Sequence record: PZ379176.1 | Strand: one strand, 5' to 3' | DNA length: 64,000 bases | DNA from: a phage | Shown here: piece after piece, positions 1-3,078 of the stretch | How the letters are laid out: each line of letters opens with the position of its first letter | How positions within the stretch are numbered: the stretch's first letter is position 1 | The notes under the pieces: model-generated | What the model was told of the DNA's origin: nothing | Databases searched by the model: none | The model's input: the letters and a program-made list of their open reading frames with translations, nothing else | Program-made: the position numbers and the translations under genes

Positions 1-63
1 TGTTTAGTGAGTTTGATGGTCAGTATAAAATCATCACACTCCCTGCTTGTGCTTGAGGTTATT

Positions 64-228
64 ATGTTCAAGTGGTTTAAACGTTTCTTCCATCTCCATG
101 ATTGGGAGACAATAAAAGAAGTTCGTTTACACATATATAATGAGATTGGTCAAATAGAAGACACAGGTACTCGTTATATACTTCGATGTAAAACATGTGG
201 TCATATCACCAAGCGAGATATGATCTAA
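64..228 (+). CDS. hypothetical small protein with C-terminal CxxC (start trimmed to first ATG of track ORF 7..228)
   Basis: ORF track 7..228; internal ATG at 64; CKTCGH motif near C-terminus. Confidence 0.35.
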   Translation: MFKWFKRFFHLHDWETIKEVRLHIYNEIGQIEDTGTRYILRCKTCGHITKRDMI

Positions 229-236
229 ATAATTCT

Positions 237-312
237 GCGCTCTTAGCTCAATGGATAGAGCAGTAGCCTTCTAAGCTATTGGTTACAGGTTCGAGTCCTG
301 TAGGGCGCACCA
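237..312 (+). tRNA. tRNA-Arg (anticodon UCU)
   Basis: Hand-folded cloverleaf: acceptor GCGCTCT/AGGGCGC (one G-U), D-arm GCTC/GAGC, anticodon stem GTAGC/GCTAT with loop CTTCTAA (anticodon TCT), T-arm ACAGG-TTCGAGT-CCTGT, discriminator A and encoded CCA at 310-312. Confidence 0.9.
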
Positions 313-318
313 CATTTA

Positions 319-432
319 GGGCTAGTATGGGTGCGGCACCAGAGTTAGTGTATCCCTGTTGAGGCAAGTGCTTTTATAACAGTGGGAATTACTTTCTTAG
401 TGAGCTTCTGGTTCGATTCCAGATAGTCCACC
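319..432 (+). ncRNA. tRNA-like element: canonical T-arm (TCTGG-TTCGATT-CCAGA at 407-423) plus acceptor-like 3' strand and CCA, but no canonical cloverleaf can be built; 5' boundary uncertain
   Basis: T-loop TTCGATT with 5-bp stem; GGGCTAG at 319-325 pairs 6/7 with ATAGTCC at 423-429, but the span (about 112 nt) is too long for a standard tRNA. Confidence 0.3.
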
Positions 433-452
433 AAATCTAATAGGAGGTAATT

Positions 453-752
453 ATGAGTTGGGGTGGTGTAATATCCTTAATCTGTATCTTCCTTGTCTGC
501 ATAGCCCTTACAGGCTGCGTACAGAGCCGTCCTGATGGATGGTGTGCAGTAGCAGTGGAAGGTGTTTGTGTTTCTCGCTGGTATAAGGGTGAGAAGATTC
601 CTTCTGGTGAAATTGATATGCGATGGAACGGAGCAACCTGTTCTAATGCTAACCCTTCTATCAACGAAGAGAAGTCTACGCCAGACAATGTTGTGATTGA
701 TACAGCGTTGTGGTGTGGTGGCTCTGTAACAACAACCGGTAAGGAGTGGTGA
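453..752 (+). CDS. predicted secreted lipoprotein (signal peptide with lipobox LTGC), Cys-rich
   Basis: AGGAGG RBS at 441-446, ATG 453; hydrophobic N-terminus followed by L-T-G-C lipobox; six further Cys. Confidence 0.6.
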   Translation: MSWGGVISLICIFLVCIALTGCVQSRPDGWCAVAVEGVCVSRWYKGEKIPSGEIDMRWNGATCSNANPSINEEKSTPDNVVIDTALWCGGSVTTTGKEW

Positions 753-753
753 T

Positions 754-951
754 ATGAATTACACATCCACAAAGGTGTTAATTGATTCAATTAATAGCTC
801 CTCAGAAGCTGTACAGGAGCGTTTAATACAAGATGTTAGCAATGACATTAAGTTCTTTGTTAAGAGCCGCCTGTTAGGTTCTAAGGCTTATTACAGAGCT
901 AAAGCAGAGCTTACAAAGAGGGTGTTTCTTTTACATGGTTTGGTATATTAA
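754..951 (+). CDS. hypothetical protein
   Basis: ORF track; tightly packed after upstream gene. Confidence 0.4.
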   Translation: MNYTSTKVLIDSINSSSEAVQERLIQDVSNDIKFFVKSRLLGSKAYYRAKAELTKRVFLLHGLVY

Positions 952-960
952 GGAACTTAT

Positions 961-1182
961 ATGAAACTAGACTCTAAGCAGTCACTTAAAACCGTTGAGC
1001 TGTCCACGCTGCCAAACGGAAGTATTTTTGGTCATGATAAACACTTCTGGATTAAAACAGACATCATAGACGATGGATATATCACCTGTGTCAATCTTTG
1101 GAACGGTTCAGTGGATGGTTATCGCCCTAGCGCAAAGGTAGTCCCTCAGCCTGATGCTAAGGCTGTAGGTTTAGTTTACTAA
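961..1182 (+). CDS. hypothetical protein, member of small paralog family (see 2576-3574)
   Basis: N-terminal pattern K..TV.LS.LP.G..F shared with the four tandem ORFs at 2576-3574. Confidence 0.5.
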   Translation: MKLDSKQSLKTVELSTLPNGSIFGHDKHFWIKTDIIDDGYITCVNLWNGSVDGYRPSAKVVPQPDAKAVGLVY

Positions 1183-1191
1183 GGAGTTCAT

Positions 1192-1365
1192 ATGAGCTGT
1201 TATGGTGGCGGTGAAGTGTGTGATGACGACGACATGGAATCCAATGGTACATGCCCTGACTGTGGGTGTGAGACATTTGATGGAGTGTCAGTATACCCTG
1301 CCTGTAGTTACTCACCAGTGATCTGTAAAACATGTGGAGATCAACCTTGTGACCAGTCTTGTTAG
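1192..1365 (+). CDS. small Cys-rich (zinc-ribbon-like) protein, 57 aa, not in ORF track
   Basis: AAGGAG RBS then ATG 1192; translation contains CPDCGC and CKTCGDQPCDQSC; stop TAG 1363-1365. Confidence 0.4.
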   Translation: MSCYGGGEVCDDDDMESNGTCPDCGCETFDGVSVYPACSYSPVICKTCGDQPCDQSC

Positions 1366-1366
1366 T

Positions 1367-1591
1367 ATGTTAATAGCCTATCTGATAGGATCAGTAGTAT
1401 CAGGTGTTCTGATTAAGATTATAGATGTTAAAGGTAATCAGTGTTTCAGAGGTTGGGATGGTGAGCCAGACCTCGGAAAGATAGCAGCTATGGTTTTCTT
1501 GTGGCCTATTATTGCTGTACTATTTATAGCACTCGTATCATGGGCTGCTCTTTGGGATTTCATCCTTCCTAACAAAAAGTATGAGGACTAA
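1367..1591 (+). CDS. small membrane protein (two hydrophobic helices)
   Basis: Track ORF 1334..1591 trimmed to ATG 1367; strongly hydrophobic segments. Confidence 0.45.
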   Translation: MLIAYLIGSVVSGVLIKIIDVKGNQCFRGWDGEPDLGKIAAMVFLWPIIAVLFIALVSWAALWDFILPNKKYED

Positions 1592-1722
1592 TGACTGAAG
1601 AATTTTTAAAGTGGTTTGGTGATACCTTCAAAGAGTATCTATTCTCTCCAGAAGACTTTGAAGAACTGAAAACCTACACTTGGTTGGCTTGGAGAGATAG
1701 CCGACGAGAGATGAATAAGTAA
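1591..1722 (+). CDS. hypothetical small protein (43 aa)
   Basis: ATG overlapping upstream stop (TAATG); in-frame to TAA 1720-1722. Confidence 0.3.
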   Translation: MTEEFLKWFGDTFKEYLFSPEDFEELKTYTWLAWRDSRREMNK

Positions 1723-2255
1723 TATCGTGAAGGATTCTTACGAGAGTCCTTTGAGATAGGACTTCAGATCTCCTATCAAACTAACATTCATGTAACTAGC
1801 CCATAAGGGCGTTACCCTTTAATAACCCAGCCCACTAAGGGGGCGGGAGTTTAGTGCTGGATTAGCATAACGCTTATTCCTACAAAGGCAACCGATTGTT
1901 AGGTCTTACATGCAATATTAATTAATAGGATAAGGGAGGATTCGTCCCCTCCCCTATTCATAAACTATTAGGAGAGTACATTAGCTGATTAGCTGTGGAA
2001 GGTAGGCCGATATCTACAGCGTGGCCCAGAGCTAGTGTACTCCCCAATAACTTTAGGGTAAATGTGGAACAACCTTTTAATTACAGGTATAGCTTATGGG
2101 ACTCAGTAATGCAGAGTCTACGGTAAAGCAGTCGCCCGTGGTCGAATGACCGTATGCCCATTGGATGCATTCCTTTGGTGATGGCTAGGGAGTCCGAGCG
2201 TAGGTTCGAATCCTACACCTGTAACCAAATTGAATAATAGCTAATTGGAGGATGT
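1723..2255 (+). ncRNA. 530-bp ORF-free structured region ending in a tRNA-like 3' end (T-arm GTAGG-TTCGAAT-CCTAC, acceptor ACCTGTA, discriminator A, CCA at 2225-2227); candidate unusual or interrupted tRNA, or other structured RNA
   Basis: No ORF of 60 aa or more; perfect 7-nt acceptor complement TACAGGT at 2082-2088; hairpins at 1755-1777 and 1933-1952; no canonical cloverleaf found by hand. Confidence 0.3.
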
Positions 2256-2567
2256 ATGAAAGCACGAAGAACTATATGGACTCCGATGCAGATTGAAAAT
2301 CTTCGGAGACTAATCAAAGAGTACTCGGTTCAAGAAGTTGCTCAGATTATGAATGTAACGGAGAATGCAGTTAACGCAGCTTGTACTAAATTCGGAATAT
2401 CAAGAGCTTCAATCCGAGTTAAATGGTCTGAAGAAGAAGACCAGTTCCTTATCCGTAATGCTGGGTTCATGTCTATTCAGAGAATGGCTGACATGCTCGG
2501 TAGAAGTTATGCTGCTGTACAGAACAGAGCATGTATGCACCTTAACATTAGCCTCAAACTTAAATAG
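2256..2567 (+). CDS. putative DNA-binding regulator with two tandem helix-turn-helix-like repeats
   Basis: GGAGG RBS; repeated segments SVQEVAQIMNVTENAVNAA and MSIQRMADMLGRSYAAVQNRA. Confidence 0.5.
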   Translation: MKARRTIWTPMQIENLRRLIKEYSVQEVAQIMNVTENAVNAACTKFGISRASIRVKWSEEEDQFLIRNAGFMSIQRMADMLGRSYAAVQNRACMHLNISLKLK

Positions 2568-2575
2568 GAATCAAT

Positions 2576-2830
2576 ATGAAAGTTAACGAATTGAACAAAA
2601 CTATCAAGACTGTGAAACTCCACACTCTGAAGAAGGGCGATACCTTCCGGCTGGAAGAGAACGGTCCAATTCATATGGTCTGTACTGCGGCATCTACTAA
2701 TTGGGTAGAAGTTGCACGAGATCGAGTCGTGTGTGTCAGACTGGAAGATGGACACTTAAGTGGCCCCGTTGAGGGCATCTCTGTTATTCCTGTTAAGGTT
2801 GAAGCTAACGTTATTAAGGATTCTAAATGA
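2576..2830 (+). CDS. hypothetical protein, tandem paralog 1 of 4
   Basis: Four consecutive 81-84 aa ORFs with overlapping stop/start codons and a shared N-terminal pattern. Confidence 0.55.
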   Translation: MKVNELNKTIKTVKLHTLKKGDTFRLEENGPIHMVCTAASTNWVEVARDRVVCVRLEDGHLSGPVEGISVIPVKVEANVIKDSK

Positions 2831-3078
2831 AGATTACCCACAAGAAAGAAGAAGTGACCACGATTGATCTCAACTCCCTCCCCAGCGGAGCAGTGTTTAA
2901 ATTCCCTGAGAGTGCTACTCTCTATGTTAAAGGGTCTGTGTCTGAAAGTCCTAATGTAACCGTTAACTCTGATCGAACAATTACTCTTCGTCTATCCGAT
3001 GGTAACGTAACAGCACCTTCTATCTGGTGCCGAGTTGTTCCTGTATCAGCAGAACTTTTGGTGGATAATACGCAATGA
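2827..3078 (+). CDS. hypothetical protein, tandem paralog 2 of 4
   Basis: As above; ATGA stop/start overlap. Confidence 0.55.
   Translation: MKITHKKEEVTTIDLNSLPSGAVFKFPESATLYVKGSVSESPNVTVNSDRTITLRLSDGNVTAPSIWCRVVPVSAELLVDNTQ

What the first reader, a model, noticed from the sequence alone, without database searches (positions are those of the whole stretch)
237..432. tRNA-Arg(UCU) followed by a tRNA-like element that does not fold canonically
The first gene is a clean tRNA-Arg reading AGA codons. Directly after it, a perfect T-arm and CCA-bearing acceptor 3' strand (407-432) has its only acceptor complement about 112 nt upstream (319-325), and no anticodon arm can be drawn by hand. It may be an unusual tRNA, a tRNA with an insertion, or a decayed tRNA copy.
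Basis: seen in the sequence. Interest (0 to 1): 0.5.

Follow-up and report, generated by a model that had tools for sequence, protein, structure and literature searches.

The report
Conserved anticodon-less alanine-type tRNA mimic
Right after a normal arginine tRNA gene, this E. coli/Shigella phage carries an unannotated, strongly conserved 115-base gene for a tRNA-shaped RNA. It has no anticodon but has the marks that should let it be loaded with alanine, which makes it a new example of the long-unexplained "stable tRNA-like RNAs" of phages T4 and T5.

Summary
tRNA-Arg(UCU) lies at 237-312. After a 6-nt spacer comes a 115-nt element at 319-433; the CCA ends at 433, not 432. It has a perfect T arm, an encoded ACCA end and a 6-bp acceptor stem, but no anticodon arm. 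This architecture occurs three times in the window against 0.01 expected by chance.

It is not a decayed tRNA. The window is a Kuravirus (phiEco32-like phage). The element is found in 30 phage records across three genera at 97.4-100% identity. Flanking DNA in the same genomes is 72-83% identical or unrelated. Only four sites vary. All are transitions that fall in loops or keep a pair (A-U/G·U).

The best model is the top half of a tRNA (acceptor stem, D arm with GG, T arm) with a 55-nt irregular hairpin in place of the anticodon arm. The acceptor end reads G1-C72, G2-C71, G3·U70, A73, the alanine identity set. None of 434 non-Ala phage tRNAs sampled carried this full set.

The most likely reading is a non-decoding tRNA mimic that is processed like a tRNA and probably alanylated. 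Its function is unknown. The closest known kind is the T4 RNAC/RNAD and T5 RNA1/RNA2 stable RNAs.

A second, unrelated tRNA-like element (2082-2227) was also found in the window.

The parts
237..312 (+). tRNA-Arg(UCU) with encoded CCA; the upstream partner in the same transcription unit
   Evidence: ARAGORN; Rfam RF00005 at 72.4 bits. In Bas91/YF01-type phages a different tRNA-Arg(UCU) allele sits here.
313..318 (+). 6-nt spacer CATTTA between the CCA of tRNA-Arg and G+1 of the element. Together with 319-433 it forms the 121-bp presence/absence module.
   Evidence: Alignments with MN03, FS2B, phiEco32 and KBNP1711, which lack exactly 313-433.
319..433 (+). Element A: a 115-nt anticodon-less tRNA-like RNA gene (whole unit)
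   Evidence: Sequence; architecture scan; found in 30 phage records at >=97.4% identity; only 4 variable sites.
319..324 (+). Acceptor 5' strand GGGCUA. It pairs with 424-429: G319-C429, G320-C428, G321·U427 (= G3·U70), C322-G426, U323-A425, A324-U424. G325 is unpaired or mismatched with A423.
   Evidence: Sequence; invariant in all haplotypes.
328..342 (+). D-arm-like hairpin. Pairs are U328·G/A342, G330-C340 and G331-C339, with a G329xA341 mismatch. The 7-nt loop UGCGGCA carries the G18G19-like GG (335-336) and an A21-like A338. It follows U326 A327, which are in register with U8 and A9.
   Evidence: Hand model. Polymorphisms G333A (loop) and G342A (U·G to U-A) are neutral in this model, whereas G342A breaks a G-C pair in the rod-like MFE fold.
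343..397 (+). 55-nt irregular hairpin (19 pairs, 3 internal loops or bulges, apical loop 366-369) occupying the place of the anticodon arm. It has no 7-nt anticodon loop.
   Evidence: Constrained folding. A391G keeps the pair with U349 and A366G lies in the apical loop.
398..406 (+). 9-nt single-stranded linker (variable-region position), UAGUGAGCU
   Evidence: Constrained fold; invariant.
407..423 (+). T arm: 5-bp stem UCUGG/CCAGA with the canonical loop UUCGAUU
   Evidence: Sequence; motif search.
424..433 (+). Acceptor 3' strand UAGUCC (424-429), discriminator A430, encoded CCA 431-433. The RBS of the next gene follows immediately (AATCTAATAGGAGG, ATG at 453).
   Evidence: Sequence; ORF list.

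Best explanation
Element A (319-433) is a functional accessory gene for a non-decoding tRNA mimic.

Shown:
- It lies 6 nt downstream of tRNA-Arg(UCU) on the same strand, inside a run of same-strand early genes, with no promoter-like or terminator-like site between them.
- It has an acceptor stem, a T arm and an encoded ACCA.
- It lacks an anticodon arm.
- It is under strong constraint across three phage genera.
- It is a clean 121-bp presence/absence module.

Inferred from established tRNA biology:
- It is co-transcribed with tRNA-Arg.
- RNase P cuts 5' of G319, guided by the acceptor/T-stem stack and the ACCA end.
- The 3' end is trimmed to CCA433.
- The D-loop GG and the T loop form a tRNA elbow, so the RNA accumulates as a stable L-shaped molecule whose 'anticodon' limb is a 55-nt irregular helix.
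- Its acceptor end carries G1-C72, G2-C71, G3·U70 and A73. E. coli AlaRS recognises the acceptor helix without needing the anticodon. The RNA is therefore probably charged with alanine.
- With no anticodon and an over-long limb, it should not decode.

Biological role: not established. My favoured guess is a mimic or decoy that engages host factors which read the top half or 3' end of tRNAs. Candidates are AlaRS, EF-Tu, tRNA-end-modifying or tRNA-cleaving defence toxins, and processing enzymes. Its patchy distribution suggests an optional benefit to the phage. It belongs to the same kind of entity as the T4 RNAC/RNAD and T5 RNA1/RNA2 stable RNAs.

The confidence given (0.6) is for the whole statement. 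I put 'functional, processed tRNA-like RNA gene' at about 0.75, 'alanylated' at about 0.45 and the decoy role at about 0.2.
For: - Architecture and statistics.
- No curated family matches and no anticodon arm is found.
- Conservation: 30 records at 97.4-100% identity, in Kuravirus, Suseptimavirus and Nieuwekanaalvirus. Against the window, EP335 is 97.4% identical in the element but 72.5% and 82.5% in the flanks. Bas91/YF01 have a different tRNA-Arg allele upstream, and SR02/101114UKE3 have different genes downstream.
- Polymorphism: only sites 333, 342, 366 and 391 vary. All are transitions, two in loops and two switching A-U and G·U. Sites 333 and 391 occur in all four allele combinations.
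- Clean indel: exactly 313-433 is missing in MN03, FS2B, phiEco32 and KBNP1711, bounded by ACCA on both sides.
- Alanine signature: the bacterial Ala identity set is A73, G2-C71, G3·U70, G4-C69 and G20 (PMC9976931). Among 453 distinct phage tRNAs in session loci, G3·U70 occurs in 16/19 tRNA-Ala and 8/434 others, and none of those 8 also has G1-C72, G2-C71 and A73.
- Precedent: T4 has tRNA-Arg followed by rnaD and rnaC. T5 is annotated with 'tRNA-like stable RNA with unknown functions' inside its tRNA region.
- Support by analogy: a second non-canonical tRNA-like element in this window (2082-2227) has 3 compensatory pair changes and sits inside a tRNA array in a Klebsiella N4-like phage.
Against: - There is no expression data, so the mature ends and aminoacylation are all inferred.
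- No compensatory double substitutions exist for element A, so the fold is not proven by covariation.
- The unconstrained MFE is a rod that disrupts the T arm: -37.9 kcal/mol against -32.3 for the tRNA-like fold, and the overall z-score is only -2.1.
- The acceptor stem has 6 rather than 7 pairs. Positions 4:69 (C-G) and 20 (C) do not match the minor Ala determinants.
- High identity could partly reflect recent horizontal spread rather than long-term purifying selection.
- No homologue was found in E. coli genomes, plasmids or JGI metagenomes, and GTDB genomes gave only one chance match. IMG/VR gave only one weak possible relative.
Confidence: 0.6

Rival explanations
1. It is a decaying tRNA pseudogene or recombination scar, for example a tRNA-Ala copy disrupted by an insertion, with no function of its own.
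For: No tRNA finder or Rfam model accepts it. It is absent from most relatives, including phiEco32. The acceptor stem is one pair short and its sequence (GGGCUA/UAGUCC) looks like the E. coli tRNA-Ala acceptor minus one pair (recalled from memory, not tested here). A 6-nt direct repeat TTAGTG (345-350 and 397-402) flanks much of the extra arm.
Against: The element is 97.4-100% identical where flanks are 72-83% identical or unrelated. 111 of 115 positions are invariant, including loops. All 4 changes are structure-neutral transitions. Removing the segment between the repeats leaves a 63-nt RNA with no anticodon arm, so no ancestral tRNA is restored. A 6-mer repeat within 115 nt is expected by chance.
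Confidence: 0.1
2. It is a miniature tmRNA-like ribosome-rescue RNA. It is alanylated, enters stalled ribosomes with SmpB, and may encode a very short tag in the apical part of the long arm.
For: It has G3·U70, A73 and ACCA, a canonical T arm, and a long helix leaving the tRNA-like domain. That is the same topology as the tmRNA tRNA-like domain plus helix 2 (PMC3985003 abstract). Short tmRNA-model hits occur in other phage tRNA arrays (L117 3555-3631).
Against: ARAGORN tmRNA mode finds nothing. No Rfam tmRNA-clan hit appears even at E<=10. There are no pseudoknots. There is no convincing resume-codon/stop frame: the GCA frame runs into the T arm, and the alternative frame reads only QVLL*. A D-stem and a continuous helix occupy the space where SmpB binds tmRNA (inference from known structures).
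Confidence: 0.07
3. It is mainly a cis-acting processing module ('tRNA punctuation'). The tRNA-like fold recruits RNase P and 3' processing to cut the polycistronic early transcript just upstream of the next gene's RBS, and the released RNA is a by-product.
For: The CCA end lies about 10 nt upstream of the RBS of the downstream gene. Element B likewise ends just before the RBS of the D5-like regulator gene. There is no promoter or terminator between the units.
Against: Phages without the element have tRNA-Arg itself in the same position before the same gene, so punctuation is already provided. The downstream gene differs in SR02 and 101114UKE3 while the element is unchanged. Punctuation would constrain only the acceptor and T arms, yet the 55-nt arm, the linker and the loops are invariant too.
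Confidence: 0.12
4. It is a rod-shaped small regulatory RNA, and the tRNA-like appearance is incidental. The D-region (328-346) pairs with the T-arm region (403-421), as in the MFE fold.
For: The MFE of -37.9 kcal/mol is 5.6 kcal/mol better than the tRNA-like fold. There are 16 pairs between 328-346 and 403-421.
Against: The G342A polymorphism breaks a G-C pair of the rod in 2 of 7 haplotypes but is neutral in the D-stem model. A canonical UUCGAUU loop on a perfect 5-bp stem next to an acceptor stem and ACCA, directly after a tRNA gene, is very unlikely to be incidental. MFE predictions often miss tRNA cloverleaves.
Confidence: 0.06

Closest known systems
Phage T4 small stable RNAs: species 2 (rnaD, 119 nt) and species 1 (rnaC, 139 nt)
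   Same: They are encoded immediately downstream of tRNA-Arg on the same strand, next to a homing-endonuclease gene (segB), and are of similar size. rnaC carries a canonical T arm (CCGGG-TTCGAAT-CCCGG). Their function is still unknown. Some phages carrying element A have an HNH endonuclease just upstream of tRNA-Arg.
   Different: There is no detectable sequence similarity (no BLAST hit). rnaD has no T arm or acceptor stem. Neither has a G3·U70/ACCA alanine-type end. T4 RNAs are shown experimentally to accumulate; element A is not.
Phage T5 'tRNA-like stable RNAs with unknown functions' (RNA1, 144 nt; RNA2, 125 nt; also RNA3, RNAI, RNAIII)
   Same: They are embedded among tRNA genes on the same strand. 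RNA2 has a perfect acceptor-type stem and a CAGG-TTCGAAT-CCTG T arm enclosing non-tRNA hairpins. This is the same design as elements A and B.
   Different: They are unrelated in sequence. They have no G3·U70. Their 3' ends are not ACCA-encoded in the same way. T5 carries many of them inside a 25-tRNA region, whereas the Kuravirus has a single tRNA.
tRNA-Ala, alanine minihelices and the tRNA-like domain of tmRNA (AlaRS substrates defined by G3·U70)
   Same: Element A has G1-C72, G2-C71, G3·U70, A73, CCA and a canonical T arm. AlaRS recognition is independent of the anticodon (PMC9976931). In the phage tRNAs sampled, the full signature is specific to Ala.
   Different: The acceptor stem has 6 bp. 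Position 4:69 is C-G and position 20 is C. There is no UGC/GGC anticodon arm (unlike tRNA-Ala), and no tag ORF or pseudoknots and no tmRNA model hit (unlike tmRNA).
Element B of the same window (2082-2227) and its copies in Kuraviruses and Klebsiella N4-like phages
   Same: It is an unannotated long tRNA-like gene (146 nt) with a 7-bp acceptor stem, a canonical T arm, an encoded ACCA and a non-tRNA core. It is an accessory element that ends just before an RBS.
   Different: It is unrelated in sequence. Its acceptor starts U1-A72 with C3-G70, so it is not Ala-type. It has a multi-hairpin core rather than one long arm. It has real covariation support and a demonstrated position inside a tRNA array (L028).

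Membership tests
Canonical tRNA (Rfam RF00005) | Covariance-model score at or above the gathering threshold (29 bits), or an ARAGORN call | tested here: not met
   No hit over 319-433 at gathering or at E<=10. ARAGORN finds nothing, including in intron mode.
Canonical tRNA (Rfam RF00005) | Anticodon arm: 5-bp stem with a 7-nt loop | tested here: not met
   A 55-nt irregular hairpin (343-397) with a 4-nt apical loop occupies that position.
Canonical tRNA (Rfam RF00005) | Acceptor stem, T arm with TΨCRA-type loop, and D loop with GG | tested here: met
   Acceptor 319-324/424-429 (6 bp); T arm 407-423 with loop UUCGAUU; D loop UGCGGCA.
AlaRS substrates (tRNA-Ala identity, bacteria) | G3·U70 wobble pair in the acceptor helix | tested here: met
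   G321·U427 is the third pair from the helix end and is invariant in 7 haplotypes. Identity rule from PMC9976931.
AlaRS substrates (tRNA-Ala identity, bacteria) | A73 discriminator and G2-C71 | tested here: met
   A430 and G320-C428. The full set was seen in none of 434 non-Ala phage tRNAs.
AlaRS substrates (tRNA-Ala identity, bacteria) | Minor determinants G4-C69 and G20 | tested here: not met
   Position 4:69 is C322-G426. The position-20 equivalent is C337.
AlaRS substrates (tRNA-Ala identity, bacteria) | Actual aminoacylation with alanine | not testable with these tools
   Needs an in vitro AlaRS assay or acid-gel/periodate analysis of RNA from infected cells.
tmRNA (Rfam CL00001 tmRNA families) | Detection by tmRNA covariance models or ARAGORN tmRNA mode | tested here: not met
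tmRNA (Rfam CL00001 tmRNA families) | mRNA-like domain with a resume codon, tag ORF and in-frame stop; pseudoknots | tested here: not met
   There is no room for pseudoknots. The GCA(364) frame has no stop before the T arm, and the alternative frame gives QVLL* only (sequence reading).
Phage tRNA-cluster stable tRNA-like RNAs (T4 RNAC/RNAD, T5 RNA1/RNA2) | Encoded next to phage tRNA genes on the same strand, with no intervening promoter or terminator | tested here: met
   A 6-nt spacer after tRNA-Arg; no sites between them; compare.
Phage tRNA-cluster stable tRNA-like RNAs (T4 RNAC/RNAD, T5 RNA1/RNA2) | Partial tRNA architecture (acceptor-type stem and/or T arm) around a non-tRNA core | tested here: met
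   The same design is seen in T5 RNA2 and T4 rnaC.
Phage tRNA-cluster stable tRNA-like RNAs (T4 RNAC/RNAD, T5 RNA1/RNA2) | Sequence homology to a described member | tested here: not met
   Alignment with rnaC/rnaD shows no similarity. blastn against 50,697 phage records finds only its own 30 copies plus T-arm fragments.
Phage tRNA-cluster stable tRNA-like RNAs (T4 RNAC/RNAD, T5 RNA1/RNA2) | Accumulates as a discrete stable RNA in infected cells | not testable with these tools
   No Kuravirus small-RNA data were found. Genome papers report a single tRNA.
tRNA gene interrupted by a group I intron | Intron of roughly 200 nt or more with a P1-P9 core inserted in the anticodon loop; the exons give a canonical tRNA | tested here: not met
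   Only about 40-50 extra nucleotides are present. ARAGORN intron mode finds no tRNA. There are no Rfam intron hits.
YrlA / bacterial Y RNA-like (RF02553) | Covariance-model score at or above 69 bits | tested here: not met
   A 14.1-bit hit (E=3.3) that mostly overlaps tRNA-Arg.

The most novel reading that the evidence does not exclude
Element A may be an alanine-accepting, anticodon-less tRNA mimic, and one member of a wider, undescribed class of Ala-type (G1G2G3·U70, A73, CCA) long tRNA-like genes. These would be 105-131 nt with a short 6-bp acceptor stem and would sit in or next to phage tRNA arrays. Candidates are IMG/VR loci L072/L134, L117/L137, L106 and L124; none is called by ARAGORN or Rfam. 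Such RNAs would tap AlaRS, and possibly EF-Tu, for a non-decoding purpose. One such purpose is acting as decoys or sinks against host immunity that attacks tRNA 3' ends or acceptor stems. Another is acting as alanine donors. Either would give a first testable function for the 50-year-old 'stable RNA' puzzle of T4 and T5.
Probability: 0.2. Interest if true: 0.8.

Novelty: new member of a known kind. Interest (0 to 1): 0.52.

Why it matters
Phage-encoded stable tRNA-like RNAs have been known since the 1970s (T4 species 1 and 2, T5 RNA1 and RNA2), and none has an assigned function. Element A is a compact new example in a simple genome that has only one true tRNA. It exists naturally as a clean presence/absence polymorphism among otherwise similar, easily grown coliphages (SU10, Bas90 and Bas91 carry it; phiEco32 and MN03 do not). 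It also carries a specific, falsifiable biochemical prediction: charging by AlaRS through G3·U70. That combination makes the old question experimentally tractable. It also shows that standard annotation with tRNAscan-SE, ARAGORN and Rfam misses conserved tRNA-like genes in phages. All 30 records leave this element unannotated, and element B is likewise unannotated.

Tried and rejected
- ARAGORN with introns, lowered thresholds, mitochondrial mode and tmRNA mode gave only spurious chimeras spanning tRNA-Arg.
- Rfam at E<=10 gave nothing on the element; a 14-bit YrlA hit overlaps tRNA-Arg.
- Pattern scans for relatives:
  - GGGCTAGTA..TAGTCCACCA in IMG/VR returned 7 chance hits in coding DNA.
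  - D-arm plus T-loop, and the 3'-end 24-mer, in JGI metagenomes returned no hits.
  - The 3'-end 24-mer in GTDB genomes returned one chance hit inside a Marinobacter ORF.
- blastn against E. coli genomes and plasmids found nothing.
- A synteny search with the upstream ORF in IMG/VR found only phiEco32 and KBNP1711.
- A covariance model built from the 7 haplotypes (R1) is not specific. Ordinary tRNAs and unrelated short elements score the same (~24 bits) as the one possible relative, L124, so it could not define a family.
- Interior similarity between element A and the L124 element is not significant (524 of 1000 shuffles score as well). Only the ends resemble each other.
- blastn of the L124, L072 and L137 elements against cultured phages found nothing.
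- Protein-coding readings on either strand were rejected. The short ORFs have TTG starts, run opposite to the neighbouring genes or are interrupted, and the polymorphisms do not follow a codon pattern.
- Pfam on Kuravirus 'nucleotidyltransferase' and amidoligase genes found no tRNA-related enzyme.
- An insertion with target-site duplication (TTAGTG repeat) was rejected, because excision does not restore a tRNA.
- The tag-ORF idea (tmRNA-like) has no consistent frame in element A or in the IMG/VR candidates.
Full report
**Context.** The window is 100% identical to Shigella phage ShigP1 over the 1.5-kb stretch compared (window 1-1500). ShigP1 is a Kuravirus (phiEco32-like podophage, Gordonclarkvirinae). 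The region 1-3000 is a run of short same-strand early-type ORFs with no promoter-like or terminator-like site between the tRNA gene and its neighbours.

**Checking the observation.**
- ARAGORN calls one tRNA in the whole window, tRNA-Arg(UCU) at 237-312. Rfam scores it at 72.4 bits.
- Six nucleotides later (CATTTA) the second element begins. Read from the sequence:
  - acceptor 5' strand GGGCUA at 319-324;
  - T arm at 407-423 (UCUGG/UUCGAUU/CCAGA);
  - acceptor 3' strand UAGUCC at 424-429;
  - discriminator A430 and CCA at 431-433.
G325 faces A423.
- No anticodon arm exists. ARAGORN in intron, low-threshold, mitochondrial and tmRNA modes gives nothing or obvious chimeras. Rfam at E<=10 gives nothing on the element.
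- The arrangement is far from chance. A scan for a perfect T stem, a TTCRANN loop, an abutting acceptor strand, NCCA and a perfectly complementary upstream strand finds three sites in 64 kb against 0.01 expected (motif alone).

**Conservation.**
- blastn against 50,697 phage records finds the element in 30 records, all E. coli/Shigella Gordonclarkvirinae, at 97.4-100% identity. No intermediate relatives appear. The only other hits are about 24-nt T-arm matches to tRNA-Gln of T4-like Klebsiella phages.
- The carriers belong to three genera: Kuravirus, Suseptimavirus and Nieuwekanaalvirus.
- Against the window, EP335 is 97.4% identical in the element but 72.5% in the upstream ORF and 82.5% downstream. 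Bas91 and YF01 carry a different tRNA-Arg(UCU) allele, preceded by an HNH endonuclease gene, in front of an almost unchanged element. SR02 and 101114UKE3 have unrelated genes after it.
- Across 11 sequenced copies only four sites vary: G333A, G342A, A366G and A391G. They form seven haplotypes. Sites 333 and 391 occur in all four combinations, so there has been recombination or recurrent mutation while the other 111 positions stayed fixed.
- Relatives without the element (MN03, FS2B, phiEco32, KBNP1711) lack exactly 313-433. The junction reads ...ACCA|AATC..., so this is a clean 121-bp module bounded by ACCA on both sides.
- This pattern is what a selected accessory gene looks like. It is not what a decaying pseudogene looks like.

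**Structure.**
- With the acceptor and T arms fixed, the 5' half is in exact tRNA register. Seven acceptor-strand nucleotides are followed by U326 A327 (positions 8 and 9). Next comes a 4-position D stem UGGG/CCAG (U·G, a G×A mismatch, G-C, G-C). Its 7-nt loop UGCGGCA carries a G18G19-like GG and an A21-like A.
- The anticodon arm is replaced by a 55-nt irregular hairpin (343-397). It has 19 pairs, three internal loops or bulges and a 4-nt apical loop. A 9-nt linker and the T arm follow.
- All four polymorphisms are neutral in this model. Sites 333 and 366 are in loops. Site 342 changes U·G to U-A. Site 391 changes U-A to U·G.
- The unconstrained MFE is a rod (-37.9 against -32.3 kcal/mol, z = -2.1) in which the D region pairs with the T-arm region. 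G342A breaks one of its G-C pairs in two haplotypes.
- There are no double compensatory changes. The tRNA-like fold is therefore favoured by motif content and by one polymorphism. It is not proven.

**Alanine signature.**
- The acceptor end reads G1-C72, G2-C71, G3·U70, A73, CCA. The published bacterial alanine identity set is A73, G2-C71, G3·U70, G4-C69 and G20 (PMC9976931). The element has the major determinant and two others, but not G4-C69 or G20.
Of 453 distinct phage tRNAs, 16/19 tRNA-Ala and 8/434 others have G3·U70. None of those eight also has G1-C72, G2-C71 and A73.
- AlaRS reads the acceptor helix and charges anticodon-less minihelices and tmRNA. This is established knowledge (references; tmRNA abstracts). 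Alanylation is therefore a specific, testable prediction. It is inferred, not shown.

**Comparison with known systems.**
- T4 has the same local layout: the homing endonuclease segB, then tRNA-Arg, then rnaD (119 nt), then rnaC (139 nt). rnaC has a canonical T arm. Their roles are still unknown (PMC3014915, PMC9697503).
- The T5 record annotates RNA1 and RNA2 as 'tRNA-like stable RNA with unknown functions', plus several other stable RNAs, inside its tRNA region. T5 RNA2 has a perfect acceptor-type stem and T arm around non-tRNA hairpins.
- Element A shares the design and the genomic habit, but it has no sequence similarity with any of them.
- It fails the membership tests for canonical tRNA, tmRNA, YrlA and intron-containing tRNA (see the membership table).
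- The Kuravirus literature searched reports a single tRNA per genome, using tRNAscan-SE and ARAGORN (PMC9965538, PMC4281155). None of the records inspected annotates the element.

**Search for a wider family.**
- Exact-pattern scans in JGI metagenomes found no match, GTDB genomes gave one chance match, and BLAST against E. coli genomes and plasmids found nothing real.
- A looser scan of IMG/VR used the T loop, a 6-nt acceptor strand and UCCACCA. It returned at least 120 loci. Many look like tmRNA or attachment-site ends by eye; that was not checked with ARAGORN or Rfam.
- Several loci have a perfect GGG-initiated 6-bp acceptor complement 105-131 nt upstream and lie in or near large phage tRNA arrays, uncalled by ARAGORN or Rfam. 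These are L124, L072/L134, L106, L117 and L137.
- L072/L134 differ by a compensatory C-G to U-A change in a UUCG hairpin. L117/L137 share a covarying hairpin. Their interiors share a GGAA(G/A)CAC motif.
- L124 resembles element A at both ends (GGGCUA[A/G]UAUGG...GCUU...GAUAGUCCACCAAAU), but the interior similarity is not significant.
- A chance 6-mer complement is expected in roughly one locus in eight. A covariance model built from element A is unspecific. I therefore treat a broader 'Ala-type long tRNA-like' class as a lead, not a result.

**Second element in the window.**
- The T-loop search also exposed element B at 2082-2227 (146 nt). It has a perfect 7-bp acceptor stem (UACAGGU/ACCUGUA), a T arm at 2200-2216 and an ACCA end. 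It lies in a 534-nt non-coding gap just upstream of the D5-like regulator gene. Rfam sees only its T arm, at 14.8 bits.
- It occurs in 13 records at 92.8-100% identity. These include Klebsiella phage HS106 (annotated as Schitoviridae), where it sits between tRNA-Tyr and tRNA-Ser in a tRNA array. A diverged 124-nt relative lies in the tRNA region of Klebsiella phage KP8.
- Three of its pairs show compensatory changes, in the acceptor stem and in two hairpins. The slid controls give 0-1.
- Element B is unrelated to element A in sequence. It shows that this phage group carries and exchanges genuine, structured, non-canonical tRNA-like genes, which strengthens the reading of element A.

**Mechanism, with status of each step.**
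- Shown: position, architecture, constraint and modular presence/absence.
- Inferred from tRNA biology: co-transcription with tRNA-Arg; RNase P cleavage 5' of G319; 3' trimming to CCA433; elbow formation and stability; alanylation by AlaRS; inability to decode.
- Guess: it acts as a mimic or decoy for host factors that read the upper half or the 3' end of tRNAs. The cis-processing and mini-tmRNA readings are the main alternatives.

**Verdict.** This is a real, unannotated, conserved non-coding RNA gene. It is a new member of the known but functionally unexplained kind 'phage tRNA-cluster stable tRNA-like RNAs', distinguished by an alanine-type acceptor end. Interest is moderate, at 0.52.

Noticed in passing
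window 2082-2227 (+): Element B is a second unannotated tRNA-like gene of 146 nt. It has a perfect 7-bp acceptor stem (UACAGGU/ACCUGUA), a T arm at 2200-2216 (GUAGG-UUCGAAU-CCUAC), discriminator A2224 and CCA at 2225-2227, around a multi-hairpin core. It occurs in 13 phage records, including a Klebsiella N4-like phage where it lies inside a tRNA array (L028 404-549). It has 3 compensatory pair changes. It is unrelated in sequence to element A.
   Followed up: partly
L013 (Bas91) 1-390; L014 (YF01) 1-389; L021, L022, L025: Two very different tRNA-Arg(UCU) alleles (about 64-69% identical) precede the same element A. The second allele comes with an HNH homing-endonuclease gene that overlaps its 5' end. 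This recalls T4 segB next to tRNA-Arg and the T5 heg genes in its tRNA region. It suggests endonuclease-driven exchange of the tRNA module.
   Followed up: partly
IMG/VR loci L072 4984-5096(-), L134 9252-9363(-), L117 6609-6730(+), L137 4728-4842(+), L106 8746-8850(-), L124 2352-2482(-): These are 105-131-nt candidates with GGG-initiated 6-bp acceptor stems (G3·U70), A73, CCA and T arms. They lie in or near large phage tRNA arrays and are not called by ARAGORN or Rfam. L072/L134 and L117/L137 show compensatory changes and share an interior GGAA(G/A)CAC motif. They may form a class of Ala-type long tRNA-like RNAs.
   Followed up: partly
L117 3555-3631(+); L072 3753-3859(-): Very short sequences (77-107 nt) in jumbo-phage tRNA arrays align end to end with the Rfam tmRNA model (19.6 and 12.8 bits, below threshold). 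They look like tmRNA tRNA-like domains without the mRNA part.
   Followed up: no
window 1723-2081 (+/-): The rest of the 534-nt non-coding gap upstream of element B contains strong hairpins, for example 1930-1957, which the scan calls terminator-like on the minus strand. A weak CssrA-model hit (16.5 bits, E=0.73) lies at 1755-1861(-). The function is unknown. It may be an early regulatory region.
   Followed up: no
L030 (Klebsiella phage KP8) 421-544: A 124-nt relative of element B (UACUGGU...ACCAGUAACCA, with a T arm carrying one mismatch) lies in the KP8 tRNA region between tRNA-Leu and an annotated 'tRNA-OTHER'. ARAGORN called no tRNA at all in this 1-kb stretch, although the record annotates three.
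   Followed up: no
L015 (T4) 2910-3001(-): The 3' 92 nt of T4 rnaC can form a 7-bp acceptor-type stem (CGGAACG/CGUUUCG) closing on its T arm. The tRNA-like part of species 1 RNA may therefore be its 3' two-thirds.
   Followed up: no
L152 (Bas90) 10179-17385, equivalent genes in the window: This Kuravirus gene cluster is annotated as gamma-glutamyl cyclotransferase, a RimK-like S6 modification enzyme, a glutamine amidotransferase, an amidoligase and a COOH-NH2 ligase. Pfam confirmed Amidoligase_2 and COOH-NH2_lig. No tRNA-related enzyme was found.
   Followed up: partly
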